Virus record (IMG/VR): IMGVR_UViG_3300034358_000044
Coordinates: 64,001-128,000 of that record
Reading direction: 5' to 3' (one strand)
Origin: a virus
DNA length: 64,000 bases
The notes beneath the pieces were generated by a model that was not told the DNA's origin, made no database searches, and worked only from the letters and a program-made list of their open reading frames with translations. Positions 19,861-31,307 of this stretch are shown here, one piece after another. Made by a program: the position numbers and the translations under genes. Position 1 is the stretch's first letter. Each line of letters begins with the position of its first letter.

Positions 19861-21492
19861 CTACCCGGTGACGAAGCTGTTCATCACCGTGGGGACGTCA
19901 GTCGAGAAGCCGACCACGTCCAGCATACCGGCATCGTTGGGGTCGGCGATGGTGAACCCGTTGCTCACCATGCCGCAGACGATGAGCTTGGCATCGATGC
20001 CAGTCTCCTGCCGGTACTGACGCAGCGCCTGGAACGGGTGGACCACCCCAGCGTACGTCTCTGAGTCCGTGTAGATCACGAACACGTCCACCTTCAGCTT
20101 CTCCTTGAGAGCGTACTGCATGGGGAGAGAGCAGTCGGTGGTCCCGAAGGGGATGTCCGAGATGGACCTGACCGCCTCGGGGAGCTTCATCTTCGGGGAC
20201 AGCTTGAGGGGCTTCAGCTGCGTCCCGGAGCCCCAGAGCCCGGAGCTGCCGCCGACCCCGAAGCCCACGATGTGGTGCCATGGCTCGGTCCTGGCCGTCA
20301 CCAGCGACATGGCGGCCGAGGCGTCCCTGGGGGTCAGGTTCGAGCCCGCGACGGAGCCGCCCGACATGGACCCCGAGACGTCGAGAGCCAGCAGGTAGCG
20401 CTTGCCGGTGGGCACGATGGTGTCGAAGGCCATGTAGAAGGCCTCGTCCAGCGCATCGACCACGTTGCTGTCGGGATTCCACGACAGGCTGCCCTTGAGG
20501 CCGTGCCCTGAGCTGTAGGTGCTCTGGGCCATCAGCAGGGCCATGGGGTGGATCCTGGCCTTCCTGAGGGCTTCCTTGTCCCCCAGGCGGGCAGCCACGA
20601 AGTGGGAGGCGTCGGAGAGGGGCTTGATGAGGCCGATCTCCGTCATCTTGCCCAGGTTGCGCACCATGGCGGTCAGCGGCATGCCATTGCCCGAGGTCAA
20701 GAGGGCGTCCCAGACCTTGACCGAGTTCAGCATCTGGGTGGGCACGCACTCCCTGGGCAGGTTGTAGTCCGTGATGAGCTGGACCATCTCGGTGTCCTTG
20801 GTGACCACCTTGGCCATCTCGAAGCCCCGGATGAGGGCGGGCACGAGCGGCTGGGCGGACTGCTCCGCCGGCAGCTTGCCGACCGCCCACTGGTAGCTCA
20901 GCTTCTGGACTTCGCTCTTCGGCTTGGGCTTCGCCTTCCGGAGGATGTCCCGGTGCGACCAGCCGTTCCGGCTCTGGTACTTCACCAGGTTGAGGGCGAG
21001 CGAGTCGGGCTGCTGGTTCTCGTACCAGCGGGTGAAGCCCCTCTTGGTGACGCGGCCCCAGCCACCCAGCTCCTTCACCGCCTCCGCCATCTGGAAGAGG
21101 TGAGTCCCGATGCGGCAGACCTGAGGGATGGAAGCCGAGGCCAGACGGCGCGTCTCGACGTCGCCCTCCTTCAACGCCAACGCGAGGGCGAAGATGGCAG
21201 GGTCGTTCTTGGGCGCCTTGCCCCCGCTGCTCACGTCGATGATGAGGTTGATGGCCTTCCCGCCATCTTCCTTGATGCACTCGACGACGCTGGCAGCGTT
21301 CTCCTGGGTCAGCTTCTTCTCCGAGGCGTAGTACGACCCGCCTTCAGAGCCCAGGATGAGGAACCGCTTGAAGCGTGTCCACTTGTCAGCGGCGAAGACG
21401 AAGCCACCTGCGGAGTTCTTCACCTGCGCCATGCCCGGAACCGGTTCGGTCTGGACGGTCTTCTTCGTTGAAACGTGCTTCCCGTAGTTCAT
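19861..21492 (-). CDS. rsr: Ro60/TROVE-vWA RNA-binding protein (Rsr ortholog)
   Basis: NSAGGFVF, RFLILGSEGGSYY, KYQSRNGWSHRDILR, MPLTAMVRNLGKMT, RIHPM; vWA MIDAS LDVSGSM, GTTDCSLPM, YTDSET, DAGMLDVVGF; ATG 21492 with GGGAGG. Confidence 0.95.
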   Translation of the reverse strand: MNYGKHVSTKKTVQTEPVPGMAQVKNSAGGFVFAADKWTRFKRFLILGSEGGSYYASEKKLTQENAASVVECIKEDGGKAINLIIDVSSGGKAPKNDPAIFALALALKEGDVETRRLASASIPQVCRIGTHLFQMAEAVKELGGWGRVTKRGFTRWYENQQPDSLALNLVKYQSRNGWSHRDILRKAKPKPKSEVQKLSYQWAVGKLPAEQSAQPLVPALIRGFEMAKVVTKDTEMVQLITDYNLPRECVPTQMLNSVKVWDALLTSGNGMPLTAMVRNLGKMTEIGLIKPLSDASHFVAARLGDKEALRKARIHPMALLMAQSTYSSGHGLKGSLSWNPDSNVVDALDEAFYMAFDTIVPTGKRYLLALDVSGSMSGGSVAGSNLTPRDASAAMSLVTARTEPWHHIVGFGVGGSSGLWGSGTQLKPLKLSPKMKLPEAVRSISDIPFGTTDCSLPMQYALKEKLKVDVFVIYTDSETYAGVVHPFQALRQYRQETGIDAKLIVCGMVSNGFTIADPNDAGMLDVVGFSTDVPTVMNSFVTG

Positions 21493-21503
21493 GTTGCCTC
21501 CCA

Positions 21504-21530
21504 TTCAGCTCGTGAATCCCACGAGCAAGG
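21504..21530 (-). promoter_or_regulatory. Circularly permuted Ro-binding hairpin in the rsr leader, adjacent to the RBS
   Basis: CCUU-GCUCGUG-GGAUU-CACGAGC-U-GAA directly followed by UGGGAGGCAAC-AUG. Confidence 0.6.
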
Positions 21531-21555
21531 AACCGCGACTCTGACGGTGAAACGT

Positions 21556-22089
21556 TCAGCTCCTGAACGCCTTGGTGTTTCTCTGGGCCGCGAGAGCGAC
21601 CCCTGCTGCAGAAGCGGCCAGATTCAGGGAGGGCCTGACGTTCTCCCTCTCCTGCTCCAAGGCTTCCAGTCTGTTCGAGACGTGGATGAGCTGCTCGGCC
21701 AGGCTCTCGTACTCCTCGCGGGAGACGTAGGATTTCCTTGCCTGCTGCTTCACCAACTCCTTCATCCCCTTGCGGAACTCCTTACCTTGGTCGGAGTTCG
21801 AGAGGGCGGCGAAGAGGATCATGTCGTCTTCGGACCAGACGTGCATGTCGGCCCTGAGATACTTCAACTGAAAGGTCTCTCGGTTCTGCTGGAGAAACGA
21901 AATTGCGCCAATGTCGTTGGCGCAATTGCCGTCGAACTCGTCCCGGTGATTGAGGTAGACGTTCCTGAGGTTTCTCTCAGTGACGCCCAACACACCGGAG
22001 AGAACAGAGCCCGTAGTGAACAGGGTCCCGTCCTCGTCCTCCATCATGGGGACATTCAGATTGTTGAACTGCCAGGTCATCAGTCGCAT
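21556..22089 (-). CDS. Bro-N/antirepressor-like DNA-binding protein
   Basis: N-terminal FNNLNVPMMEDEDGTLFTTGSVLSGVLGV and C-terminal coiled coil; ATG 22089 with AAGGAG. Confidence 0.55.
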   Translation of the reverse strand: MRLMTWQFNNLNVPMMEDEDGTLFTTGSVLSGVLGVTERNLRNVYLNHRDEFDGNCANDIGAISFLQQNRETFQLKYLRADMHVWSEDDMILFAALSNSDQGKEFRKGMKELVKQQARKSYVSREEYESLAEQLIHVSNRLEALEQERENVRPSLNLAASAAGVALAAQRNTKAFRS

Positions 22090-22110
22090 GCGTTCTCCTT
22101 CAAGGGGGAT

Positions 22111-22141
22111 AAAAAAAGAGGCCCCCACTCTCATGGGAGCC
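22111..22141 (-). terminator. Intrinsic terminator at the end of the tRNA/Y RNA transcript
   Basis: GGCUCCCA-UGAGAG-UGGGGGCC stem followed by UC and U7. Confidence 0.75.
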
Positions 22142-22142
22142 C

Positions 22143-22332
22143 ACGGGCAAGACGATGCTGCTCTAGGCGGGAGGTGGACATCCCTTGCGGGTACCTCGTC
22201 CGTTTCCCTACGAGACTCCCAGCAATCAGAGTCTGGGAACTATTCAGTCAAGAGCGCCGGATTGGCGATGCCCTCGAACTTGGCAACTCTCAGCCCAAGC
22301 TCTTTTCGGGTAACCTAGAACCATCAGCCCGC
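22143..22332 (-). ncRNA. Y RNA-like module E (long)
   Basis: 5' GCGGGC-U-GAUG pairs with 3' CGUCUU-GCCCGU (bulged Ro helix) and encloses several hairpins. Confidence 0.55.
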
Positions 22333-22342
22333 TTCAAAAGAA

Positions 22343-22428
22343 GAGTGAACAAGAAGTGAAACTCGGTGGGACCCTTTTGATCGGGTCCAGCGTTTTGGGC
22401 TGGAGAACCAAGTCTCTTCGGCTCACTC
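22343..22428 (-). ncRNA. Y RNA-like module C
   Basis: GAGUGAGC-C-GAAG / UUCUU-GUUCACUC, 8 bp plus bulged C; two internal hairpins. Confidence 0.7.
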
Positions 22429-22435
22429 AAGAAAA

Positions 22436-22501
22436 GTACGAGCAAGGTTGTGAATGACGGAATCTTTTTATGGTAGGTAACCGTCACTCGTCAGCTCGTA
22501 C
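22436..22501 (-). ncRNA. Y RNA-like module B
   Basis: GUACGAGC-U-GAC / CCUU-GCUCGUAC, perfect 8 bp; inner stem GAGUGACGG/CCGUCAUUC. Confidence 0.7.
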
Positions 22502-22510
22502 AAAGAAAAT

Positions 22511-22572
22511 GGCGAACAAGAATTTAACCAGGGGTATGTTTTCCGTGGATAACCCTAGAGCGTCAGCTCGCC
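22511..22572 (-). ncRNA. Y RNA-like module A
   Basis: GGCGAGC-U-GAC / UCUU-GUUCGCC, 7 bp; inner stem CUAGGG/CCCUGG. Confidence 0.7.
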
Positions 22573-22648
22573 AAAAGCTGTGGGATAGATTTCATCCCTG
22601 TAAAACCTTATGCCGAACTTCTTCGGACTTTTGAATAGCAGTGGTGAA

Positions 22649-22722
22649 CGTCCTCGGTGAGACTCGAACTCACTACCCATTTCTTAGAAGGAAATTGCTC
22701 TATCCAGATGAGCTACGAGGAC
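22649..22722 (-). tRNA. tRNA-Arg(TCT)
   Basis: Cloverleaf; AUUUC-CU UCU AA-GAAAU. Confidence 0.9.
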
Positions 22723-22724
22723 AG

Positions 22725-22810
22725 TGGAAGACTGAGGACTCGAACCTCAACCCCTTGCGGAATCGCACGGTTTAGCAAACCGGCCAGGGACCTCCCCTGG
22801 TTAGCCTTCC
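22725..22810 (-). tRNA. tRNA-Ser(GCT)
   Basis: Cloverleaf with long variable arm; anticodon GCU. Confidence 0.9.
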
Positions 22811-22815
22811 AACAG

Positions 22816-22899
22816 CGGAGAGAGGAGGATTCGAACCTCGGCCGACTTGCATCAACCAGCAGCTTTCCAAGCTGCCTCCTGACCATCAGGTCACTCTCC
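22816..22899 (-). tRNA. tRNA-Ser(GGA)
   Basis: GCAGC-UU GGA AA-GCUGC; long variable arm. Confidence 0.9.
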
Positions 22900-22903
22900 A
22901 AAG

Positions 22904-22989
22904 CGGAAGACGGAGGTATCGAACCCCACACCCTTACAGGAGCGCACTCGTTTCGAGCGAGGCCTGGTCCCATGACCAGTTCATCTTCC
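22904..22989 (-). tRNA. tRNA-Ser(CGA)
   Basis: CUCG-CU CGA AA-CGAG; long variable arm. Confidence 0.85.
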
Positions 22990-23081
22990 AAAGCTCCCCC
23001 CAGATGCGCCCTGGAGGACCGGCGGGGCCTGTAGGTTCCCTGAGCCCCTAGCTGTCGCCAGTTCGTGAGCTCAGAGTACAG

Positions 23082-23166
23082 CGGAGGGCGGAGGTATCGA
23101 TCCCCACACCGTTTCGGGTGTCATCAGTTTTCAAGGCTGCGTCGCTTCCCAAGCGATTCACCCTCC
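23082..23166 (-). tRNA. tRNA-Ser(TGA)
   Basis: Loop CU UGA AA; long variable arm. Confidence 0.85.
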
Positions 23167-23711
23167 TAGTCAGATTCCAGCTCCCCGTTCCAGTAGGAGA
23201 CATCCCGGAGCCAGTTCTTCCAGCTTTCCGGCATGCCCTTCCTGAACGTGAAGGTCAGCCTCATCGTGTCCGGCAACTTCTTGGGACGCACCGGAGTAGA
23301 GAACAGCTTCATGCCGGCCTGCTCAGGTGTACGTCCGCCCTTCTTCTGGTTGCAGGGCACGCAAGCGATGACGATGTTCTCCCACCGAGTCTGACCGCCA
23401 TGCGCCCGGGGAACGACATGGTCGTAGGTGGACTCCTGCCTGGGCACCTTGGAGTGGCAGTACTGGCAGCGACCTTGGTCCCTCGTGTAGACGTTCTCAC
23501 GAGAGAACTTGATGGCCCTCTTCTTCCCGATGATGCGCTTCAGGAAGCGAATGACGGAAGGCACCTTGAACTCCAGGGTGACAGAACGGACGGTCCAGTC
23601 CTCGTACTCCTCGACGATCTCGACCTTGTTCTCCCAGAGAAGCGTGATGGCCCGTTGCCAAGGGATCCTGGCCACCGGCTCAAATGATTGCGACAATACC
23701 AGCGTGTCCAT
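23166..23711 (-). CDS. Free-standing HNH endonuclease
   Basis: RDQGRCQYC...TYDHVVPRAHGGQTRWENIVIACVPCNQKKG; ATG 23711 with GGAGG. Confidence 0.9.
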   Translation of the reverse strand: MDTLVLSQSFEPVARIPWQRAITLLWENKVEIVEEYEDWTVRSVTLEFKVPSVIRFLKRIIGKKRAIKFSRENVYTRDQGRCQYCHSKVPRQESTYDHVVPRAHGGQTRWENIVIACVPCNQKKGGRTPEQAGMKLFSTPVRPKKLPDTMRLTFTFRKGMPESWKNWLRDVSYWNGELESD

Positions 23712-23738
23712 GACCAGCCTCCTTTGACTACGAGTGTG

Positions 23739-23817
23739 TGCCCCAGGAGGGAATCGAACCCTCATGCCGAAGCAGTGGATTTTGAATCCACCGTGTCTAC
23801 CGTTCCACCACCGGGGC
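23739..23817 (-). tRNA. tRNA-Leu(CAA)
   Basis: GUGGA-UU CAA AA-UCCAC. Confidence 0.9.
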
Positions 23818-23823
23818 CCTACT

Positions 23824-23905
23824 TGGATGAAGAGGGACTCGAACCCTCATGAGCAAGCTCGCCGGCTTCTAGGGCCGGAGTGTCTACCAGTTCCACCATT
23901 CATCC
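23824..23905 (-). tRNA. tRNA-Leu(TAG)
   Basis: CCGGC-CC UAG AA-GCCGG. Confidence 0.9.
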
Positions 23906-23908
23906 ATG

Positions 23909-23991
23909 TGATCGAGAAGGGACTTGAACCCTTACGGTGTTACCCGCCTGCCCCTCAAGCAGGTGCGTCTACCAATTTCCGCCACTCGATC
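23909..23991 (-). tRNA. tRNA-Leu(GAG)
   Basis: CCUGC-UU GAG GG-GCAGG. Confidence 0.9.
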
Positions 23992-23995
23992 AATG

Positions 23996-24078
23996 TGCCC
24001 AGAGCGAGAATCGAACTCGCACGGTTTTACCCGCCAGACTCTGAATCTGGTGCGTCTACCAAGTTTCGCCACCTGGGC
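23996..24078 (-). tRNA. tRNA-Leu(CAG)
   Basis: CCAGA-UU CAG AG-UCUGG. Confidence 0.9.
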
Positions 24079-24083
24079 AACTG

Positions 24084-24155
24084 TACTGGCAGAGGGATTC
24101 GGACCCCCGACATCTTGGGTGTAGGCCAAGCGCTCTACCTCTGAGCTATGCCAGC
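24084..24155 (-). tRNA. tRNA-Val(TAC)
   Basis: CUUGG-CC UAC AC-CCAAG; T-loop UCCGAAU. Confidence 0.85.
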
Positions 24156-24217
24156 ATGTTGAGGACTTGGTAGCGCAAGTTGCCTCTGAACCTCTTCCCT
24201 TTCGGGTGCTACGGGTG

Positions 24218-24288
24218 TCGTGAGTGACAGAGTTGAACTGTCCTTCCAGGCTTATGAGGCCCGTGTCTTACCGATAGACGAACTCACG
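24218..24288 (-). tRNA. tRNA with CAT anticodon (elongator Met or Ile2)
   Basis: CGGGC-CU CAU AA-GCCUG. Confidence 0.8.
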
Positions 24289-24297
24289 TACTGCACA

Positions 24298-24371
<74 letters not shown>

Positions 24372-24372
24372 A

Positions 24373-24445
24373 CGCTCTTGGAGGGATTCGAACCCCCGAC
24401 TTCCTCTTTAGGAAAGAGGCGGTCTATCCACTGACGTACAAGAGC
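24373..24445 (-). tRNA. tRNA-Arg(CCT)
   Basis: CCUCU-UU CCU AA-AGAGG. Confidence 0.9.
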
Positions 24446-24450
24446 AACAG

Positions 24451-24522
24451 CGCCCTGCCGAGGAGTTGAACCTCGCACTATCCCAGGTTCGTAGCCTGAG
24501 GTCTGGATCCGCCAGGCAGGGC
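24451..24522 (-). tRNA. tRNA-Arg(ACG), atypical short D arm
   Basis: UCAGG-CU ACG AA-CCUGG. Confidence 0.75.
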
Positions 24523-24525
24523 ATG

Positions 24526-24594
24526 AGCCCTATCGGAGAGTTGAACTCCATCTTTCGCCTTCGGAGGGCGAAGTCCAGATCCGCTGGATAGGGC
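24526..24594 (-). tRNA. tRNA-Arg(CCG), atypical short D arm
   Basis: UUCGCC-CU CCG AA-GGCGAA. Confidence 0.75.
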
Positions 24595-24792
24595 CTACTT
24601 CTTTCTACTTCTCGGAGAGGCTCTTGGTTTGGGGACCAGAGTAGGCCCGTCGTAGCCGATACCGGCTTCCAAGAGGCGCTCCAGACGCATCCATTTCTCT
24701 CTGTCGTAGCCGTCTGTTCCGACGTCACGAGTCCAAAGCTCGTGGAAGAGCACTCGTGCTTCTGCCTTCTCTTCTTTTTTCAAGCGGTGCAT
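24595..24792 (-). CDS. Hypothetical protein
   Basis: ORF MHRLKKEEK... fills the gap between two tRNAs. Confidence 0.5.
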   Translation of the reverse strand: MHRLKKEEKAEARVLFHELWTRDVGTDGYDREKWMRLERLLEAGIGYDGPTLVPKPRASPRSRKK

Positions 24793-24795
24793 GAG

Positions 24796-24867
24796 TGCTC
24801 CCGATGGGAATCGAACCCAATGCCTCGTCCTTACCAAGGACGTGCTCTGCCGTAGAGCTACAGGAGC
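24796..24867 (-). tRNA. tRNA-Thr(GGT)
   Basis: CGUCC-UU GGU AA-GGACG. Confidence 0.9.
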
Positions 24868-25086
24868 GTACTACAGGTAGCTGACACACTTGCCTTTGGG
24901 AGGTGGTGGTCCGTCTGGTGTTCTGCCCCGTGCCATGGATGGCATCCGAACTCCGTGCTTTGTTCGGCGTCGTCTTTTCCCGTGTGTCGGAAGGTGAGGT
25001 GCATCACGTACTTCCTCCCCTGGATCCACCGGGGAGGCGTCTGTATGAGCCGTGGGCACGCCTCACTTGCTACTAGTCCGGCTACC

Positions 25087-25305
25087 CTAATCGTGACTGC
25101 AGGTGAGCTTCAGTGGATCGTGTCGAACGAAGATGCCCAGGACGGTCTTGTTGCCGCAGAAGCAGCACTCACCCGGGGGCTCTTTCGTCATGAGGGGAAG
25201 GCGCACTTCAACTTCGCCCTCTGGAGTCTTGGAGTAGTTCTTGGCGAGCCAGCAGTCGCCACACATCCGGTGGGTCCATTTGAGGATCCGCTCTGCAGGA
25301 GGCAT
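25087..25305 (-). CDS. Small Cys-rich (Zn-binding) hypothetical protein
   Basis: CGDC...CCFCG...C-terminal CSH. Confidence 0.55.
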   Translation of the reverse strand: MPPAERILKWTHRMCGDCWLAKNYSKTPEGEVEVRLPLMTKEPPGECCFCGNKTVLGIFVRHDPLKLTCSHD

Positions 25306-25314
25306 TCAGCTTCC

Positions 25315-25551
25315 TTACCACATCACGAGCTGGGCCTTGATCTTCTTGGCCTTGAGTCTGGCCAATGCCCTCTTCGCTTCCTTCTTGTCGTCCTTGAACT
25401 CGAACAGCAAGTCCCGCATCTTCGTCTCCATCAGAACGCCGGCCCCCATTTCTGGGCGTCCGACGATTCCCTTGATGACGGAGTCGAGATCGAACTTCGG
25501 GTACCTATCGATCGAGTAGTATACGGTCAGGACGTAAGACTCTTTGGCCAC
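25315..25551 (-). CDS. Hypothetical protein
   Basis: ATG with GGAG RBS; phage-like codon usage. Confidence 0.6.
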   Translation of the reverse strand: MAKESYVLTVYYSIDRYPKFDLDSVIKGIVGRPEMGAGVLMETKMRDLLFEFKDDKKEAKRALARLKAKKIKAQLVMW

Positions 25552-25581
25552 CAGAGCACTCCTCTCATTACGGGTTGAACA

Positions 25582-25654
25582 TGGAGCTGGACGGGATCGA
25601 ACCGACGACTTCCAGATTGCAAACCTGGCGCTCTCCCAACTGAGCTACAGCCCC
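25582..25654 (-). tRNA. tRNA-Ala(TGC)
   Basis: GGGGCUG acceptor with G3:U70; anticodon UGC. Confidence 0.92.
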
Positions 25655-25662
25655 TTCTACAG

Positions 25663-25733
25663 TGGACATGGAGAGAATCGAACTCTCGTCTCTCGGATGC
25701 GAACCGAGTGCTCTCCCGCTGAGCTACACGCCC
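25663..25733 (-). tRNA. tRNA-Ala(CGC)
   Basis: CUCGG-UU CGC AU-CCGAG; G3:U70. Confidence 0.9.
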
Positions 25734-25738
25734 TTCAG

Positions 25739-25811
25739 TGGACCTTGACGGGATCGAACCGTCTACCTCTTGGATGCCATCCAAGTGCTCTCCCAGATGA
25801 GCTAAAGGCCC
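25739..25811 (-). tRNA. tRNA-Ala(GGC)
   Basis: CUUGG-AU GGC AU-CCAAG; G3:U70. Confidence 0.9.
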
Positions 25812-25816
25812 AGACT

Positions 25817-25945
25817 ACGCGAGCAAGGAATCTGCCACTCCGATTTATACCGACGCTCTACCATTGAGCTACTCTCGATGCTTTGAGAGATGGGCATCGA
25901 ACCCACAACCTTCGGTTCCAGATAATGGAATGACTTCGGCTCGCT
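25817..25945 (-). ncRNA. YrlA-type Y RNA #1 (Ro stem plus permuted tRNA-like domain)
   Basis: 5' GCGAGC-C-GAAG / 3' CCUU-GCUCGC; T arm GUGGG-UUCGAUG-CCCAU, then capped acceptor-like stem CUCUC/GAGAG, then D arm UA-GCUC-AAUGGUA-GAGC; no anticodon arm. Confidence 0.85.
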
Positions 25946-25946
25946 G

Positions 25947-26018
25947 TGCTCCAAGAAGGAGTTGAACCTTCTACCTTTCCCATGTCAAGGGAACGATCTA
26001 CCGGTGATCTACTGGAGC
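25947..26018 (-). tRNA. tRNA-Val(GAC)
   Basis: UUCCC-UU GAC AU-GGGAA. Confidence 0.9.
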
Positions 26019-26080
26019 AGATGTACGGTGGCTTCAAGGCTTCCGCCCTTGGCCTGCATTTGTCTCCCGTACGAGACCTG

Positions 26081-26153
26081 TGCTGACCCTCGGAATCGAA
26101 CCGAGATGTTCCGCTCTTCAGGCGGACGCATGAACCATCACTGCCAGGTCAGC
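26081..26153 (-). tRNA. tRNA-Phe(GAA)
   Basis: UCCGC-CU GAA GA-GCGGA. Confidence 0.88.
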
Positions 26154-26199
26154 ATACTCCAGAGGGACTCTCGCCCCTCTGGGCGCTACGAAAGATGTG

Positions 26200-27114
26200 C
26201 TAGGTCTTGCGAGCCGAGGCCCCGTTGTTCTGGGTCTGGATGAGGTTCTGCACGTCGGCCAGGGACTTGGTCGAAGCCGCCGCCTCCAGCGCCTTGGTGG
26301 CGATGTCGGTGACCCTCTTGTCGGCGTCGTTGATGCGGCCCTGAAGCTGGCCGATGACCATGTCCTGGTTGGCCAGGCGGTCGTTGAGACCCTTGATGGT
26401 GTTGTCCGCCACCAGCTTCGCCGTGTCGGCGTCCTTCTGGAGGAGGGAGAGCTTGTGCTCGTAGTCCCTCTTCACGGAGCTGCCCACGATGGCCTCCGCC
26501 TTCTTCACTTCGGAGTCGATCTTTGCCGGGAAGGCAGTGACCTGCGCCCTGAGCTCGGTGATCTCGTTCTCCTGCTTCTTGAGGTTCTCCTCCCGCTCCT
26601 TGAAGCCCTTCTCCATCAGCTCCCTGCGATCTCGATCCTGAGCCGCCGTGACACGAATCTCCTCTTCGTGGCGGAGCTGCTCGGAACGACGAGCCTGCTG
26701 CAGGTCGTAGGTGTACTGCTCCTCGTCCTTCGTGCGCTCCAGCTCCTGCGAGGCCTTGGCCGCCGACACCTCCTGCTGGTAGCGATCGCTCTCCCGGTCG
26801 ATCTCCGCCTTCCGATCCTCGAAGGCGGCCTCCAGCTCGTCGAAGGCCTTCAGGACGTTCTCGGCCTCGTAGATGCCGGTGAGCTCCTGCTTCTTCAGAT
26901 CGACCGCCTGGGAGACCGTGTTGAGCTCCTGGAGCTGCTCCTGAAGCTTGCTGGTCACGTCGGACAGGGTCTTGCCGATGCTCAGCTGCGCCTCGGTCAC
27001 CTTCTTCGCAGCAGCATCGATGGTGAGGTTGGCGGCGGTCTTCAGGGTTGCTTCGTTCTTCACCGTCGTGGCCACATCGGACCTGGTGACGGCCTTCTTC
27101 TTCGGAGTTGCCAT
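26200..27114 (-). CDS. Long coiled-coil protein (304 aa)
   Basis: Heptad-rich E/K/Q/A sequence with strong phage codon bias. Confidence 0.8.
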   Translation of the reverse strand: MATPKKKAVTRSDVATTVKNEATLKTAANLTIDAAAKKVTEAQLSIGKTLSDVTSKLQEQLQELNTVSQAVDLKKQELTGIYEAENVLKAFDELEAAFEDRKAEIDRESDRYQQEVSAAKASQELERTKDEEQYTYDLQQARRSEQLRHEEEIRVTAAQDRDRRELMEKGFKEREENLKKQENEITELRAQVTAFPAKIDSEVKKAEAIVGSSVKRDYEHKLSLLQKDADTAKLVADNTIKGLNDRLANQDMVIGQLQGRINDADKRVTDIATKALEAAASTKSLADVQNLIQTQNNGASARKT

Positions 27115-27219
27115 TCTGTATTCCCCTCGGCGTGTTGGCCTAAGCTAAATTGCTTGGCCACACCCTTCTACCGAAAGGGTCTGACATTTTGCTTTTCTCC
27201 CTTTTGTTCTCAGCACTTG

Positions 27220-27291
27220 CGGTCTGTACGGGAATCGGACCCGTCTCGGCACCGTGACAGGGTGCTCGCCTCACCAGATGCGTAACAGACC
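27220..27291 (-). tRNA. tRNA-Asp(GTC)
   Basis: GCACC-CU GUC AC-GGUGC; T-loop UCCGAUU. Confidence 0.85.
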
Positions 27292-27380
27292 AACTCGCCT
27301 CTCCTCCCGGTCGTAGACGAGGACAGGTCGTCATCCCGGTGAAGTCCTTCGGCACGGGAGAGGCCCCGAGCCTGAATCTG

Positions 27381-27452
27381 GGCGAAGTACGGGACTCGAA
27401 CCCGTGTTTCAAGAGTCACAATCTTGCGTCCTGCCGCTGGACGAACTCCACC
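27381..27452 (-). tRNA. tRNA-His(GTG)
   Basis: CAAGA-UU GUG AC-UCUUG; G-1:C73. Confidence 0.9.
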
Positions 27453-27586
27453 ATACAACTGTTGAACCACCCTCTTCGCCCGGCCTTGTGTTGGAAAGGG
27501 CAAGCCCTCTGGGTCTCTCACCCAGTGAAACAGCTCACTTCAACTTCGAAGCTGCTGCACCCTCCGGCGCCTACTTAGGTTCAACA

Positions 27587-27658
27587 TGCACCAAGAAGGA
27601 ATTGAACCTTCCACCTCACGCTTATCAGGCATGCGCTCTACCAATGAGCTACTGGTGC
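27587..27658 (-). tRNA. tRNA-Ile(GAT)
   Basis: CAUGC-CU GAU AA-GCGUG. Confidence 0.9.
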
Positions 27659-27664
27659 GAACTT

Positions 27665-27874
27665 CTACTTCTTGATCTCCTTCCAGTTACCACTGAACCT
27701 TTCTTCCCAATATCCAACTGGAATGGACAGATCATCAGACCCGCCTTCTGGAGGAAGCCCCTTCATCCAGTAAGGTCTGTGTCCCAACATCGTGAGGAGT
27801 TCCTTTTCATTGACGATTCTAGGACTACGCTCAACAACACGTTGACCACCAAGATGAAGCTCGAATGTTCTCAT
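27665..27874 (-). CDS. Hypothetical protein
   Basis: ORF MRTFELHLGG... fills the gap between two tRNAs. Confidence 0.45.
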   Translation of the reverse strand: MRTFELHLGGQRVVERSPRIVNEKELLTMLGHRPYWMKGLPPEGGSDDLSIPVGYWEERFSGNWKEIKK

Positions 27875-27875
27875 G

Positions 27876-27949
27876 TCGAGGAGACAGGATTTGAACCTGC
27901 GATCTCTTGGATCCGAACCAAGCGCGATACCAGTCTTCGCTACTCCTCG
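27876..27949 (-). tRNA. tRNA-Pro(CGG)
   Basis: CUUGG-UU CGG AU-CCAAG. Confidence 0.9.
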
Positions 27950-28050
27950 ATGGCCGGCAGTACCCGACGTACACTCGGGTCTCTTGGCTGTGCGCTCCCT
28001 GTTGCCAGGTGCCACTGTACCGGAGCCACTCAACTGAGTGGGTGAAGCTG

Positions 28051-28324
<274 letters not shown>

Positions 28325-28343
28325 GTGTCCTCGTGAAGATGAA

Positions 28344-28476
28344 GATGGGCAAGGTATTAGACTTGGGGTTTAAGCGCTCTACCGCTGAGCTACCCCGAGA
28401 TAGAATCCCGGGGGCAAGGAGTTGAACCTCGCGACCTCTCCATTATGAGTGGTAATCCAAATCAGTTCAGCCCATC
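28344..28476 (-). ncRNA. YrlA-type Y RNA #2
   Basis: 5' GAUGGGC-U-GAAC / 3' CCUU-GCCCAUC; T arm CGAGG-UUCAACU-CCUUG, capped acceptor-like stem CCCCGGGA/UCUCGGGG, D arm UA-GCUC-AGCGGUA-GAGC; no anticodon arm. Confidence 0.85.
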
Positions 28477-28478
28477 AG

Positions 28479-28552
<74 letters not shown>

Positions 28553-28561
28553 ATGCTACAG

Positions 28562-28634
28562 TACCGCGTACGGGAGTCGAACCCGTCTCTCCAGCTTGAA
28601 AGGCTAGCGGCCTCACCAGAAGCACGAACGCGGC
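28562..28634 (-). tRNA. tRNA-Glu(TTC)
   Basis: CUAGC-CU UUC AA-GCUGG. Confidence 0.88.
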
Positions 28635-28637
28635 ATA

Positions 28638-28709
28638 TGACCTTGGGGAGAATCGAACTCCCGTTCCCAGGATGAGAACCTGGTGTCCGAACCACTAGAC
28701 GACAAGGCC
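28638..28709 (-). tRNA. tRNA-Glu(CTC)
   Basis: CCAGG-UU CUC AU-CCUGG. Confidence 0.9.
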
Positions 28710-28713
28710 TACT

Positions 28714-28785
28714 AGACGAGGGTGAGAGTCGAACTCACTCATGACGGTTTTGCAGACCGTCGCCTTCCCACTTGGCTACCCCGTC
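28714..28785 (-). tRNA. tRNA-Cys(GCA)
   Basis: ACGGU-CU GCA AA-ACCGU; U73. Confidence 0.9.
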
Positions 28786-29632
28786 ATTCTTCTGCTCAGG
28801 TGTGCTTGTGGCCATACTTCGATGGTTCACTCAGCTTTCGAAGGGTACCGTCATCGTGATTCTCGTACTCGCTTGCGCGCTGGTTGGAGCCCTCGACTTC
28901 GTATCGCCTCCCGAAGTGGCGTTGACAGCCCCCTACCTCGCCATCATCAGCTTCGCCGTCTGGTACGGAGGGCGCTTCCACGGGTACGCAGTTGGAACCT
29001 TTGGCATCATCACCCGCTTCATCAGTGCCCAGCAGCTCCTGCACAACAGGCCCTACCTGAGCGCCTGGAACGTCGTCCTTGAGGCGTTGGTGCTGCTGGG
29101 TGCTGCCACCATCATCTTCCAGTTCAAGTCCGCCCTGGAGCACGAGAAGGCCTTCTCCCGGAAGGACCTGCTGACCGGGTTGCTCTCCCGCAGAGGCTTT
29201 GATGAGGTGGTGGAGCGCGAGCTCAATCGTTCGAAGCGCTACAAGACGCCCATCTGCGTGGCCCTCATGGACGTGGACAAGTTCAAGAGGGTGAATGACG
29301 TTCAGGGGCACAAGGCAGGGGACATGCTACTAAGGGGGCTCGGTCAGTGCCTCACCAAGGCCGTCCGCAATGTGGATGCTGTGGCCAGATGGGGCGGTGA
29401 CGAGTTCATCCTTCTGATGCCCGACACCTCTCTCAAGGATGCAGAGTTGGCCGTTGCCAGAGTGAAAGAGGAGCTTGCTCTCTTTTTCCAGCTCTGGGGC
29501 ATCGGTCTCTCCATTGGCGTCTCGGAGATTGGCCCCAAGGGAATCGACCAGGCTCTTCACGATGCGGATGTGAAGATGTACAACCTCAAGAAGCTCTCCA
29601 GGCAGGGCTCGAACCTGCGACCCCCGAGTTAA
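28772..29632 (+). CDS. Membrane-anchored diguanylate cyclase (GGDEF); start codon uncertain
   Basis: About 4 N-terminal TM segments; DLLTGLLSRR, DVDKFKRVNDVQGHKAGD, RNVD I-site, RWGGDEF, SIGVS, ADVKMY. Confidence 0.9.
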   Translation: MATPSFFCSGVLVAILRWFTQLSKGTVIVILVLACALVGALDFVSPPEVALTAPYLAIISFAVWYGGRFHGYAVGTFGIITRFISAQQLLHNRPYLSAWNVVLEALVLLGAATIIFQFKSALEHEKAFSRKDLLTGLLSRRGFDEVVERELNRSKRYKTPICVALMDVDKFKRVNDVQGHKAGDMLLRGLGQCLTKAVRNVDAVARWGGDEFILLMPDTSLKDAELAVARVKEELALFFQLWGIGLSIGVSEIGPKGIDQALHDADVKMYNLKKLSRQGSNLRPPS

Positions 29633-29667
29633 CAGCTCGGTGCTGCTACCAACTGAGCTACTGGAGA
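29594..29667 (-). tRNA. tRNA-Asn(GTT)
   Basis: CCGAG-CU GUU AA-CUCGG. Confidence 0.9.
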
Positions 29668-29682
29668 ATACCACTACGACTG

Positions 29683-29754
29683 TGCGCCCCCTCAGGGTCG
29701 AACTGAGACGTAAGCGCTTATGAGGCACTGGCTCTACCATTGAGCTAGAGGCGC
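29683..29754 (-). tRNA. tRNA with CAT anticodon (Ile2 or elongator Met)
   Basis: AGUGC-CU CAU AA-GCGCU. Confidence 0.85.
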
Positions 29755-29756
29755 GA

Positions 29757-29829
29757 AGCCCTGAGCCAGATTCGAACTGGCCACCTACTGATTACAAATC
29801 AGTTGCTCTGCCGAATGAGCTACCAGGGC
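29757..29829 (-). tRNA. tRNA-Thr(TGT)
   Basis: ACUGA-UU UGU AA-UCAGU. Confidence 0.9.
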
Positions 29830-29833
29830 ATTG

Positions 29834-29905
29834 CTGGGACACCAGGATTCGAACCTGGATCTGCCCGCTTCAAAGGCGGTCGTCTTACCTTTGGACGATG
29901 TCCCA
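29834..29905 (-). tRNA. tRNA-Gln(TTG)
   Basis: U1-A72; loop CU UUG AA. Confidence 0.88.
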
Positions 29906-29908
29906 ATG

Positions 29909-29979
29909 CTGAGGGTCAGGGATTCGAACCCCGATGATCAGTGTCAGAGACTGACATCCTACCGTTGGATGAACCCTCA
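29909..29979 (-). tRNA. tRNA-Gln(CTG)
   Basis: UCAGU-CU CUG AC-ACUGA. Confidence 0.9.
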
Positions 29980-30001
29980 AGATGCTACGGAGATTTGGTC
30001 A

Positions 30002-30075
30002 GGGGGTAAGCAGGTCTTGAACCTGCATCTGGACCGTCATGGGGTCCCGCTCTACCAACTTGAGCTACTACCACC
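30002..30075 (-). tRNA. Atypical tRNA-His(ATG)
   Basis: GGACC-CC AUG AC-GGUCC; G-1:C73; C33; 2:71 mismatch. Confidence 0.7.
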
Positions 30076-30355
30076 CGGGCACCCTTCACAGAATGCCATT
30101 CTCCCTACCCGTTTCCTAGGACGGAAGAGAGGAACTGATTGAAGATTGTGTGAGGTTTCCTCATGGGCCTGCTGAAGCTCTGGGCTTGTCACCCAGAGTT
30201 CCCATGAGGAGAACCCGACGGCCATTGCTGGCAATCACTCTCCTGGGGGATCGAACCCGTACAGCTCCCCCCCGAAAGAACACGATCTCTTCATGTGCTT
30301 TCGGCGAGGAGAGGGGGCGCCAGCCCCCATCTGGAGAAGACCTAAAAGTTGTGTG

Positions 30356-30427
30356 AGCGGGTAGAGGGACTCGAACCCTCGACATTCTGCTTGGAAGGCA
30401 GAAGCTCTACCACTGAGCTATACCCGC
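30356..30427 (-). tRNA. tRNA-Gly(TCC)
   Basis: GCGGGUA acceptor; UCUGC-CU UCC AA-GCAGA; U73. Confidence 0.92.
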
Positions 30428-30716
30428 GTACTGACCCCTGAGGGGCCCTTCGATGTTGGACCACGACGTTGTGCAATCCGGCTGAGTCGCGAGCTCATCC
30501 TCTCGGGGCTGGTACTGAGGGGTTCCCTGGGACGTGAAGATCCCGTGGCATCGAGCAGCTTCACTTCTTGAGGAACGCCACCCCGTTGTGCTTCCCGTAT
30601 GGTTCGGGCCTGGGTCTTGGGGCTCTGCGTCCCCTCACCAGTTCGCTTACACCATGCCGTACTGCGTGTCTTCATTGTATGTAATCACTGGTCCTCCTTG
30701 TGCGTTACATGACGTG

Positions 30717-30788
30717 TGCTCCCGCTGGGAATCGGACCCAGGACCCTTCGCTTAAAAGGCGAGTGCTCTACCACTGAGCTACGAGAGC
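30717..30788 (-). tRNA. tRNA-Lys(TTT)
   Basis: Loop CU UUU AA; T-loop UCCGAUU. Confidence 0.85.
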
Positions 30789-30835
30789 GCGACTGGCGCA
30801 CCGCAGCTTGGTTTCTGTCTCATGTTGTTCTCCTG

Positions 30836-30908
30836 TGGGCTCGGAGGGAATTGAACCCTCAACCTCGTGCTTAAGAGGCACTTGCTCTACCAATTGAGCT
30901 ACGAACCC
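30836..30908 (-). tRNA. tRNA-Lys(CTT)
   Basis: Loop CU CUU AA. Confidence 0.9.
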
Positions 30909-30949
30909 ATGCGCCTCTTCCCGAACTGCGGAAGAGACGTTCACCACTA

Positions 30950-30968
30950 CTATTCAGTTCTCAAAGAA
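30950..30968 (-). promoter_or_regulatory. rrn boxA-like antitermination motif
   Basis: TTCTTTGAGAACTGAATAG resembles the TCTTTGAAAACTGAA boxA-type motif of many bacterial rRNA operons. Confidence 0.45.
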
Positions 30969-30975
30969 ACCTCAG

Positions 30976-31062
30976 TGGGTGAGGTGGGGATCGAACCCAC
31001 CGGTATCTCGTAGAGAGACCAGATTTACAGTCTGGCGGGGCACCATTGCCCACGTCTCACCC
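30976..31062 (-). tRNA. tRNA-Tyr(GTA)
   Basis: CCAGA-CU GUA AA-UCUGG; long variable arm. Confidence 0.88.
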
Positions 31063-31077
31063 ATATTCGAATGTCCA

Positions 31078-31148
31078 AGCGGCTAGTGGGAATCGAACCC
31101 ACTTGTTCAGGCTGGCAACCTGATGCTCAACCAATGAGCGATAGCCGC
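31078..31148 (-). tRNA. tRNA-Gly(GCC)
   Basis: UCAGG-UU GCC AG-CCUGA. Confidence 0.9.
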
Positions 31149-31159
31149 ATATTCATTTG

Positions 31160-31232
31160 AGCCCAAGAGAGGAATCGAACCCCCGACCGTCTGCTTACGA
31201 AGCAACTGCTCTTCCAACTGAGCTACTTGGGC
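31160..31232 (-). tRNA. tRNA-Thr(CGT)
   Basis: Loop UU CGU AA. Confidence 0.88.
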
Positions 31233-31236
31233 ACTG

Positions 31237-31307
31237 CACGCCGCGTAGGAATCGAACCCACGTCTTCAGTTTTGGAGACTGACGTCCTTCCACTGGACGA
31301 GCGACGT
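31237..31307 (-). tRNA. tRNA-Trp(CCA)
   Basis: UCAGU-CU CCA AA-ACUGA; G73. Confidence 0.9.

What the first reader, a model, noticed from the sequence alone, without database searches (positions are those of the whole stretch)
22143..22639. ~500-nt non-coding array of tandem and nested Ro-binding modules (candidate multivalent Y RNA scaffold)
Seen: three tandem self-closed modules (22511-22572, 22436-22501, 22343-22428) separated by U-rich linkers (AUUUUCUUU, UUUUCUU). An outer helix, GCUAUUCA-AAA-GUC-C-GAAG (22639-22621) with CUU-GAC-UGAAUAGU (22252-22239), could enclose all three. A fifth helix (22332-22322 with 22151-22143) crosses the outer one, so the two would be alternative folds or a pseudoknot. 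The array starts about 10 nt after tRNA-Arg(TCT) and ends at a terminator. Inference: it is either a polycistronic precursor cut in the U-rich linkers into mini-Y RNAs, or one long RNA binding 4-5 Ro rings. I know of no description of this architecture.
Basis: partly seen in the sequence, partly recalled or inferred. Interest (0 to 1): 0.9.

Follow-up and report, generated by a model that had tools for sequence, protein, structure and literature searches.

The report
Phage cluster of four Y RNAs
The 500-nt stretch is a real cluster of four small Y-RNA-like genes (binding sites for the phage's own Ro60/Rsr ring protein) at the tail of a 41-tRNA operon, a layout seen in many uncultivated phages, whereas the proposed outer helix that would make it one nested multi-Ro scaffold is not supported.

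Summary
On the minus strand, three self-closed hairpin modules lie at 22573-22510, 22501-22436 and 22428-22343. A fourth, 190-nt module (22332-22143) follows, 8 nt after tRNA-Arg(TCT) at the start and ending at a strong terminator.

A covariance model built only from modules beside other phages' rsr genes finds exactly these three hairpins in the whole 195.7-kb genome (29-40 bits). A 5'-half matrix plus an 8/8-bp upper stem supports the fourth. The same model gives 80 hits in 78 rsr sources, all on the rsr strand, with strong covariation. It gives none in 366 kb of unrelated phage DNA. Twelve sources carry three or more modules.

So this is a Y-RNA gene cluster, 0.6 kb upstream of an intact TROVE-vWA Rsr gene. 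It is not unique to this window.

The "outer" helix exists as complementarity. It lacks the family's upper-stem geometry, has zero ensemble probability, costs 11 kcal/mol when forced, and crosses the well-supported fourth module. No close relative is available to test it by covariation.

Most likely a polycistronic tRNA-Y precursor is processed into separate Y RNAs, as in Deinococcus. A single multivalent RNA remains possible (about 0.2). I call it a new variant of a known kind, of moderate interest.

The parts
22648..22723 (-). tRNA-Arg(TCT), last of 41 minus-strand tRNA genes (22648-31307). The array begins 8 nt downstream of it.
   Evidence: ARAGORN; Rfam tRNA 60.5 bits
22574..22647 (-). 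74-nt leader between the tRNA and module A. It carries the 5' strand of the proposed outer helix (22639-22613: CUAUUCA-AAA-GUC-C-GA-AG-AGUUCGG) and two small local hairpins. It is not a canonical module 5' half.
   Evidence: Sequence. Absent from the top 5'-half matrix hits. Local hairpins in the folds.
22510..22573 (-). Module A, a 64-nt mini Y-like hairpin. Lower stem UGGCGAGC/GUUCGCCA, bulged U, GA/UU step, upper stem CUAGGG/CCCUGG, loop starting GGGUUAUC.
   Evidence: R1 32.1 bits, E 5e-6; lower-stem pair probability 0.95
22436..22501 (-). Module B, a 66-nt mini Y-like hairpin. Lower stem GUACGAGC/GCUCGUAC, bulged U, upper stem AGUGACGG/CCGUCAUU, loop starting GGUUACC.
   Evidence: R1 40.5 bits, E 3.4e-8; descriptor scan gives lower stem 8 bp, upper stem 9 bp
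22343..22428 (-). Module C, an 86-nt Y-like module. Lower stem GAGUGAGC/GUUCACUC, bulged C (GCCGAAG fits the published GNCGAAN0-1G motif), upper stem AGACUUGG/CCGAGUUU, GGUUCUC, and two extra small hairpins in the loop.
   Evidence: R1 28.9 bits; 5'-half matrix 21.7 bits; lower-stem pair probability 1.0
22143..22332 (-). Module F, a 190-nt Y-like RNA with a roughly 140-nt multi-hairpin loop and no tRNA-like domain. Lower stem 22332-22327 with 22148-22143; bulged U 22326; GA 22325-22324 with UU 22150-22149; upper stem 22321-22314 with 22167-22160; GGUUACC 22315-22309.
   Evidence: 5'-half matrix 19.0 bits; lower stem 6 bp and upper stem 8-9 bp; lower-stem pair probability 0.72-0.99. Too long for R1's band.
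22239..22260 (-). 3' strand of the proposed outer helix (CCGGCGCU-CUU-GAC-UGAAUAGU). It lies inside the loop of module F, so the outer helix and F cross.
   Evidence: Mean unpaired probability 0.47 when F is folded alone.
22110..22142 (-). Intrinsic terminator (10-bp stem, U7 tail) directly abutting the 3' strand of module F. It is the likely 3' end of the tRNA/Y transcription unit.
21556..22089 (-). 177-aa ORF between the array and rsr, with a weak anti-repressor-like match. It starts after the terminator and carries its own Shine-Dalgarno sequence.
19861..21504 (-). Intact Ro60/Rsr gene (547 aa; TROVE plus Ro60 vWA domains), the presumed protein partner of the modules.
   Evidence: Matches Xenopus Ro60 1YVP at E 6e-123 and D. 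radiodurans Rsr 2NVO at E 7e-116.
25819..25944 (-). YrlA-like Y RNA with the same Ro stem plus a T arm, an acceptor-like stem and a D arm. It starts 2 nt after tRNA-Val(GAC). It belongs to the same Y repertoire but lies outside the array.
   Evidence: Rfam YrlA 36 bits, below the gathering score of 69; R1 18.7 bits; matrix 22.0 bits
28344..28476 (-). Second YrlA-like Y RNA. It starts 2 nt after tRNA-Pro(TGG).
   Evidence: Rfam YrlA 25.5 bits; descriptor scan gives lower stem 7 bp, upper stem 7 bp

Best explanation
The region is a cluster of four Y-RNA-like genes: three 64-86-nt hairpin 'mini-Y' modules (A, B, C) and one 190-nt large-loop module (F). It forms the 3' end of the phage's 41-tRNA transcription unit, 0.6 kb upstream of the phage's own Ro60/Rsr gene.

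Each module has a lower stem interrupted by a bulged pyrimidine and a G.U/A-U 'GA/UU' step. This matches the helix type that Ro60 proteins bind on Y RNAs. Above it sit a 6-8-bp upper stem and a loop opening with GGUUAYC.

Inferred mechanism:
- The modules are co-transcribed with the tRNAs and terminated at 22142-22110.
- tRNA processing separates them from tRNA-Arg.
- They are cut in the single-stranded U-rich linkers and trimmed back to the stems.
- This yields four separate Y RNAs, each holding one Rsr ring.
- The differing loops would recruit different partners, for example a host 3'-5' exoribonuclease, as in the Deinococcus and Thermus phage phiLo Ro60-Y-PNPase complexes.

Shown here: the family membership, the structure and the genomic linkage. 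Inferred only: Rsr binding, co-transcription, processing and partner recruitment. I treat the 'outer' helix as a chance, relic or at most auxiliary tertiary contact, not as a fifth Ro site.
For: 1. Model R1 was built from 25 modules of other phages' rsr loci. In the window it hits only B, A and C (40.5, 32.1, 28.9 bits) and a YrlA-like RNA. In the whole 195.7-kb genome it hits only these three.
2. The family is tied to rsr. There are 80 hits at E<=0.01 in 78 sources, all on the rsr strand; 26 sources have 2 or more hits and 12 have 3 or more. There are 0 hits in 366 kb of unrelated phage DNA.
3. Covariation. In the MAFFT seed, 87% of cells pair against 65% shuffled, and the score is 0.64 against 0.23, with 0/500 shuffles as high. 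In the 80-hit alignment, 91% of cells pair and all 8 upper-stem pairs carry double changes. The lower stem of the seed was pre-selected for pairing; the upper stem was not.
4. Within the window the four upper stems all differ in sequence yet all pair.
5. F has a 5' half of 19.0 bits, a lower stem and an 8/8-bp upper stem at consensus spacing.
6. The partner gene is intact.
7. A terminator follows F, and no other strong terminator lies in the tRNA region.
8. Modules behave as independent units elsewhere. Loci carry 1 to 6 modules. Stand-alone genes exist with a promoter-like box and a U tail (L016). A tRNA separates two modules in L007.
9. Precedent: the D. radiodurans tRNA-Asp/Yrn2/Yrn1 polycistronic precursor (PMC4201824), and two Yrl RNAs upstream of phage phiLo Ro60 that bind it and host PNPase (PMC12135203).
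10. No ORF with any family match covers the region.
Against:
- A, B and F carry U instead of the near-invariant bulged C, and GAC/GAU instead of GAA. They therefore depart from the published GNCGAAN0-1G motif and may bind Rsr weakly or not at all.
- No Rfam Y-type family hits the array.
- There are no tRNAs between A, B, C and F to force cleavage.
- The predicted fold joins leader and array through an 8-bp AU-rich closing helix, 22634-22627 with 22341-22334 (probability about 0.95). That would be compatible with an unprocessed RNA.
- The outer-helix complementarity is rarer than strict chance expectation.
Confidence: 0.62

Rival explanations
1. One long RNA of about 540 nt (22647-22110) stays intact and acts as a multivalent scaffold carrying 4-5 Rsr rings. 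The outer helix (22639-22613 with 22260-22239) would form a long-range pseudoknot with module F, or alternate with it, enclosing A, B and C.
For: - The outer complementarity can extend to about 21 bp, with a vertebrate-like GUC-C-GA/UU-GAC core.
- Helices of that quality occur only about 0.002 times per 540 nt in 1.4 Mb of control sequence.
- The distal strands CUAUUCA and UGAAUAG are largely unpaired in local folds, so a tertiary contact is physically possible.
- No tRNAs separate the modules.
- phiLo Ro60 forms higher-order and dimeric RNPs with its Yrl RNAs (PMC12135203).
Against: - The strict chance rate was defined post hoc from this helix. A looser, a-priori pattern gives about 0.05 per 540 nt.
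- Duplex energy is no better than shuffles.
- Ensemble probability is 0, and forcing the helix costs 11.4 kcal/mol and unfolds module C.
- The 5' strand lacks the family's spacing and GGUUAYC and is not a top matrix hit.
- It crosses the canonical module F.
- Two long-range Y-type pairings touching arrays turned up in relatives: L017:5271-5661, which encloses a mini module, and the overlapping modules of L020. Neither is convincing and neither was followed up.
- Modules elsewhere occur singly or separated by tRNAs.
Confidence: 0.2
2. The array is mainly a decoy or buffer. Modules with the off-consensus bulged U (A, B, F) would bind Rsr weakly and titrate or time the availability of free Rsr, or gate its cavity, rather than tether effectors.
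For: - The bulge is C in 24 of 25 seed modules but U in A, B, F and the YrlA-like RNA at 28476.
- Y RNAs are described as gates for Ro60 access in D. radiodurans (PMC4726728).
Against: - Nothing here measures affinity.
- U-bulge modules also occur in another phage (L051), so U may simply be tolerated.
- The varied, structured loops suggest specific partners rather than passive decoys.
Confidence: 0.1
3. The hairpins work independently of Rsr, as 3'-terminal stabilisers, leaky terminators (stem plus U-tract) or processing punctuation for the tRNA operon.
For: - Each module's closing stem is followed by a U-rich tract.
- The array sits at the operon's 3' end, before the terminator.
Against: - The same motif family follows rsr on the rsr strand in about half of 78 sources, whether or not tRNAs are present.
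- It is absent from 366 kb of unrelated phage DNA.
- The conserved bulge/GA-UU/GGUUAYC details are not needed for termination.
Confidence: 0.05

Closest known systems
Deinococcus radiodurans Yrn1/Yrn2 Y RNAs (Chen et al. 2014, PMC4201824)
   Same: - Several Y RNAs are encoded beside rsr.
[quoted passage not shown]
- Both strands of the Ro-binding helix resemble the metazoan one.
- One of them is a simple long hairpin.
   Different: - Here there are four modules in a row (six Y-like RNAs in the phage) behind 41 tRNAs, in a virus.
- The mini modules are shorter.
- Three modules have a bulged U.
- Expression and Rsr binding are not shown here.
YrlA / YrlB of Salmonella Typhimurium, Mycobacterium smegmatis and mycobacteriophages (Rfam RF02553; PMC4201824)
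   Same: - rsr-linked, on the same strand.
- A GNCGAA-type 5' strand.
- The window's two RNAs at 25944 and 28476 have the YrlA order of T arm, acceptor-like stem and D arm.
- The mini modules play the 'hairpin Y RNA' role of YrlB.
   Different: - Array modules have no tRNA-like domain and no YrlA model hit.
- Even the two tRNA-like ones score 36 and 25.5 bits against a gathering score of 69.
- The 3' strand (CUUG...) is recognisable here, unlike in Salmonella and M. smegmatis.
Thermus phage phiLo Yrl1/Yrl2 with phage Ro60 (PMC12135203)
   Same: Phage-encoded Ro60 with more than one Y-like RNA just upstream. Binding, higher-order RNPs and a complex with host PNPase have been shown experimentally.
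   Different: - Two RNAs there, not a four-module array fused to a tRNA operon.
Vertebrate Y RNAs and nematode stem-bulge RNAs (Rfam RF00019, RF01656; PMC4726728)
   Same: - Lower stem with a bulged pyrimidine.
- GA/UU step.
- Upper stem followed by a UUAUC loop motif.
- Sister modules in another phage (L055) score 25-34 bits on the nematode sbRNA model, close to its gathering score of 38.
   Different: - The window's own modules do not hit either model.
- No Pol III context.
- Whether the likeness is common descent or convergence on Ro60 binding is unknown.

Membership tests
Y RNA (functional class: Ro60/Rsr-bound ncRNA) | Encoded close to, and on the same strand as, a Ro60/Rsr (TROVE) gene | tested here: met
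   rsr lies at 19861-21504 (-) and the array at 22143-22573 (-), 0.6 kb upstream.
Y RNA (functional class: Ro60/Rsr-bound ncRNA) | Terminal helix with a bulged C and the conserved 5' motif GNCGAAN0-1G (PMC4201824) | tested here: inconclusive
   Module C (GCCGAAG) and the outer 5' strand (GUCCGAAG) fit. A and B (GCUGACG) and F (GCUGAUG) have U for the bulged C and C/U for the last A.
Y RNA (functional class: Ro60/Rsr-bound ncRNA) | Physical association with, and stabilisation by, Ro60/Rsr | not testable with these tools
   Needs EMSA or co-immunoprecipitation.
Rfam YrlA (RF02553) | Covariance-model score at or above the gathering score (69 bits) | tested here: not met
   No YrlA hit at E<=10 in 22100-22647. 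The only hit nearby, 22666-22779, is two adjacent tRNAs at 24 bits.
Rfam YrlA (RF02553) | tRNA-like domain (T arm, acceptor-like stem, D arm) | tested here: not met
   Absent from A, B, C and F, by sequence and with no ARAGORN or tRNA model hit in the array. Present in 25944-25819 and 28476-28344.
Metazoan Y_RNA / nematode sbRNA (RF00019, RF01656) | Covariance-model hit | tested here: not met
   None for the window array at E<=10. Sister modules in L055 reach 25-34 bits against a gathering score of 38.
Metazoan Y_RNA / nematode sbRNA (RF00019, RF01656) | UUAUC motif at the start of the loop after the upper stem (PMC4726728) | tested here: met
   A has GGGUUAUC. B and F have GGUUACC and C has GGUUCUC, which are variants. 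Columns G19 T20 T21 and C24 are invariant in the 25-module seed.
Phage rsr-linked mini-Y family defined here (model R1) | Significant hit by a model built without the window's sequences | tested here: met
   B 40.5, A 32.1 and C 28.9 bits, E 3e-8 to 3e-5 over 64 kb.
Phage rsr-linked mini-Y family defined here (model R1) | Two covarying helices (lower stem plus GA/UU, and upper stem) at consensus spacing | tested here: met
   Family level. A, B, C and F individually. The outer helix does not meet the spacing or the GGUUAYC criterion.

The most novel reading that the evidence does not exclude
The 3'-terminal segment of about 540 nt is not cut up. It persists as a single RNA in which three mini-Y arms are enclosed by a long-range helix (22639-22613 with 22260-22239) that interlocks as a pseudoknot with the 190-nt terminal module. 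This would present 4-5 Ro-binding helices and assemble a multi-ring Rsr particle. No such multivalent Y RNA has been described.
Probability: 0.15. Interest if true: 0.8.

Novelty: new variant of a known kind. Interest (0 to 1): 0.5.

Why it matters
Y RNAs are known as one to a few small RNAs beside the Ro60 gene. Here a phage carries six Y-like RNAs in three designs: hairpin, large multi-hairpin loop, and tRNA mimic. All are wired into its tRNA operon.

The same model shows that arrays of 3-6 such modules are common beside rsr in uncultivated phages. That points to a diversified adaptor set for one Ro60 ring during infection. It also gives a ready covariance model for annotating these RNAs, some of which currently lie under 'hypothetical protein' calls (see the passing notes).

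The modules share the bulged stem and the UUAUC loop motif of vertebrate Y RNAs and nematode sbRNAs. This makes the relationship between prokaryotic or viral Y RNAs and eukaryotic ones testable.

For the specific claim of a nested multi-Ro scaffold, the value of this check is negative: it is not supported.

Tried and rejected
- blastn of the array against 50,697 phage records: no match.
- Close relatives through Rsr in IMG/VR and JGI metagenomes: best 55% amino-acid identity, and no array-level homologue. Covariation of the outer helix is therefore untestable.
- Exact scan for the outer 5' strand in IMG/VR: none.
- Degenerate A/B-type 5' pattern in IMG/VR: 41 matches, all without an R1 hit, so they are chance.
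- blastn-short of the array against all fetched loci: only 14-15-nt chance words.
- R1 with filters off cannot span F or the outer helix.
- RNAduplex of the outer 5' strand against the rest: the best partner is elsewhere, and the energy equals the shuffle mean.
- Tandem Repeats Finder: nothing; the modules are diverged paralogues at 66% column identity.
- Sigma-70 promoter scan of 19.5-32.5 kb: none.
- RtcB in the genome: absent.
- Pfam and PHROG on ORFs overlapping the region: none.
- Two Wolin-lab reviews and the supplements of Chen 2014 are not held. I could not check whether phage Y arrays are tabulated there.

Full report
**Context.** The window is bases 64001-128000 of a 195.7-kb IMG/VR virus record. 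Its minus strand carries 41 tRNA genes from 31307 down to 22648. The finding lies immediately downstream of these (22639-22143). It is followed by an intrinsic terminator with a 10-bp stem and a U7 tail at 22142-22110. Next comes a 177-aa ORF (21556-22089) with a weak anti-repressor-like match. Then comes an intact 547-aa Ro60/Rsr gene at 19861-21504, with TROVE and Ro60-vWA domains. The Rsr protein matches Xenopus Ro60 (1YVP, E 6e-123), human RO60 and D. radiodurans Rsr.

**Observation.** The whole segment folds more stably than shuffles (-193.8 kcal/mol, z = -4.3). The minimum-energy fold contains A, B, C and the fifth helix, but not the outer helix.

**What the modules are.** All share one plan. 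A lower stem ends in G(A/G)GC, then a bulged C or U, then GA, then two bases. A 6-8-bp upper stem follows, and the loop starts GGUUAYC. On the return strand come the upper stem, about 5-8 bases, CUU, and the lower stem.

I fetched 80 IMG/VR loci and 6 metagenome loci through the Rsr protein (42-55% identity). A simple scan showed the same plan in many of them, right next to rsr. There are two size classes:
- hairpins of 58-90 nt;
- RNAs of 125-150 nt with a T arm, an acceptor-like stem and a D arm (YrlA-like).

I aligned 25 hairpin modules from other phages, with none from the window (A2). The given structure pairs in 87% of cells, against 65% after shuffling and 40-54% after sliding the partner. 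The covariation score is 0.64 against 0.23, with 0/500 shuffles as high. The lower stem had been pre-selected for pairing. The upper stem had not, and 7 of its 8 pairs change on both sides.

The resulting model R1 hits only four places in the 64-kb window, both strands: B (40.5 bits), A (32.1), C (28.9), and a YrlA-like RNA at 25944-25819 (18.7). In the whole genome it hits only A, B and C.

Over 78 sources it gives 80 hits at E<=0.01, every one on the rsr strand. Twenty-six sources have two or more hits and twelve have three or more. On that alignment 91% of cells pair and all 8 upper-stem pairs show double changes. That alignment is fitted to the model, so it leans towards the structure. A set of 41 unrelated phage loci (366 kb) gives no hit.

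The modules are therefore members of a real, rsr-linked structured-RNA family.

**The fourth module.** R1 cannot span long loops, so I used a position matrix of the 24-nt 5' half from A2. Its five best scores in the window are the YrlA-like RNA at 25944 (22.0), C (21.7), the fifth helix's 5' strand at 22332 (19.0), A (16.7) and B (14.2). The best plus-strand score is 10.4.

It is followed by GGUUACC, with an 8-nt spacer before CUU. It is thus a canonical 190-nt module (F) with a multi-hairpin loop of about 140 nt and no tRNA-like domain. Large-loop modules of 126-176 nt in L016, L021 and L063 are comparable.

**The outer helix.** The complementarity is CUAUUCA-AAA-GUC-C-GA-A-G with C-UU-GAC-UGAAUAG. 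It can extend by six more pairs, 22618-22613 with 22260-22254. Evidence on it is mixed.
- Under a loose a-priori pattern (3-4 bp, a bulge of up to 4 nt, then at least 6 bp), such helices occur 122 times in 1.4 Mb. That is about 0.05 per 540 nt.
- Under a strict pattern tailored to it, there are 6 hits in 1.4 Mb. Two are true modules and one is the helix itself, which gives about 0.002.
- Its duplex energy is not better than shuffles.
- Its pair probability in the ensemble is 0, and forcing it costs 11.4 kcal/mol and unfolds C.
- Its 5' strand is not among the top matrix hits and has a 15-nt rather than 8-nt distance to a degenerate GGUUUUAC.
- It has no 3' spacer.
- Its 3' strand sits inside F's loop, so it can only coexist with F as a pseudoknot.
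- The distal strands are largely single-stranded in local folds, so a tertiary contact cannot be excluded.

No close relative exists in the collections searched, so covariation cannot decide. I rate it as unsupported, with about 0.15-0.2 probability of being functional.

The fold predicts another closing helix, UUCAAAAG at 22634-22627 with CUUUUGAA at 22341-22334. It is AU-rich and not statistically remarkable.

**One RNA or several.** No expression data could be obtained. The indirect evidence favours separate units.
- Module number per locus varies from 1 to 6.
- Stand-alone modules have their own promoter-like box and U tail (L016).
- In L007 a tRNA sits between two modules.
- In this window the two YrlA-like RNAs begin 2 nt after tRNA 3' ends, at 25946/25944 and 28478/28476. 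tRNA processing would therefore release them.
- Linkers in other arrays are 10-28 nt and A+U-rich (60%). Here they are U-rich and single-stranded.
- The published precedent is the D. radiodurans tRNA-Asp/Yrn2/Yrn1 precursor, which is processed to separate Y RNAs (PMC4201824).

Against this, nothing between A, B, C and F forces cleavage.

**Comparison with known families.**
- The published bacterial 5' motif is GNCGAAN0-1G (PMC4201824). Module C fits it. A, B and F deviate: they have a bulged U, and GAC or GAU.
- Rfam YrlA does not hit the array. It scores 36 and 25.5 bits, against a gathering score of 69, on the two tRNA-like RNAs.
- The plan resembles vertebrate Y RNAs and nematode sbRNAs, including the UUAUC loop motif described for those (PMC4726728).
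- Four tandem modules in L055 score 25-34 bits on the nematode sbRNA model RF01656, whose gathering score is 38. The window's modules do not hit it.
- Phage precedents are YrlA-like RNAs in 22 phages (PMC4201824), two Yrl RNAs upstream of phiLo Ro60 with binding shown (PMC12135203), and three abundant transcripts upstream of an Rsr-like gene in a Listeria phage (PMC12282133).
- I found no description of 4-6-module arrays. However, two reviews and the key supplementary tables were not available.

**Verdict.** The reading as Ro-binding modules is well supported. The nested multi-Ro scaffold is not supported. I classify the region as a new variant of a known kind: an expanded, tRNA-operon-embedded cluster of eukaryote-like mini Y RNAs, one instance of a layout recurrent in uncultivated phages. 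The scan's other first-reader notes on this genome (four tandem Y genes, six to seven Y RNAs in total, a 190-nt 'Y4') agree with what I tested.

Noticed in passing
window 25819-25944 (-) and 28344-28476 (-): Two YrlA-like tRNA-mimic Y RNAs (Ro stem, T arm, capped acceptor-like stem, D arm) sit inside the tRNA array. Each starts 2 nt after a tRNA 3' end, tRNA-Val(GAC) and tRNA-Pro(TGG). Rfam YrlA scores 36 and 25.5 bits, below the gathering score of 69, so standard annotation would miss them.
   Followed up: partly
L055:2819-3407 (IMGVR_UViG_3300031643_000003); family-wide in alignment A2: Phage mini-Y modules carry an invariant GGUUAYC at the start of the loop. This is the same place as the UUAUC motif of vertebrate Y RNAs and nematode sbRNAs. 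Four tandem L055 modules score 25-34 bits on Rfam's nematode sbRNA model RF01656 (gathering score 38). This points to homology or tight convergence between phage and eukaryotic Y RNAs.
   Followed up: partly
L093:2577-2645 and 2853-2918 (Mycobacterium phage TinyTim, MK112554.1): Two R1 hits (25.7 and 26.4 bits) lie just upstream of the Ro-like gene and overlap annotated 'hypothetical protein' CDSs 229 and 230. These ORF calls may really be Y RNA genes.
   Followed up: no
L017:5359-6085 (IMGVR_UViG_3300021181_000012): A six-module Y array lies downstream of rsr. It includes a module (5518-5658) whose embedded tRNA-like part is in the normal D arm, anticodon-like arm, T arm order rather than the permuted YrlA order.
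   Followed up: no
L020:3193-3402: Two Y-like modules overlap. The 3' lower-stem strand of the first (..UCCGAGUC) is also the 5' strand of the second, so the two folds are mutually exclusive. This may be a switch.
   Followed up: no
L004:3390-3520: Between Y modules upstream of rsr lies a tRNA-like sequence with D-arm and T-arm motifs. A long insert separates them, and ARAGORN does not call it. It may be an intron-bearing or disrupted tRNA.
   Followed up: no
L062:6875-8500: In another phage the Y array downstream of rsr is followed by a tmRNA gene and seven tRNAs. The linkage of rsr, Y RNAs and the tRNA/tmRNA cluster recurs (also in Gordonia phage Sixama, L091).
   Followed up: no
window 22724-22990 (-): Three long-variable-arm tRNAs lie just upstream of tRNA-Arg. 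ARAGORN leaves one undetermined (22724-22810, 'anticodon gt'). Rfam scores all three as sub-threshold tRNA-Sec-like, at 35-40 bits against 47.
   Followed up: no
window 21493-21565 (-): An earlier first-reader note proposes a Y-like bulged helix in the rsr mRNA leader. R1 gives no hit there. I did not examine it further.
   Followed up: no
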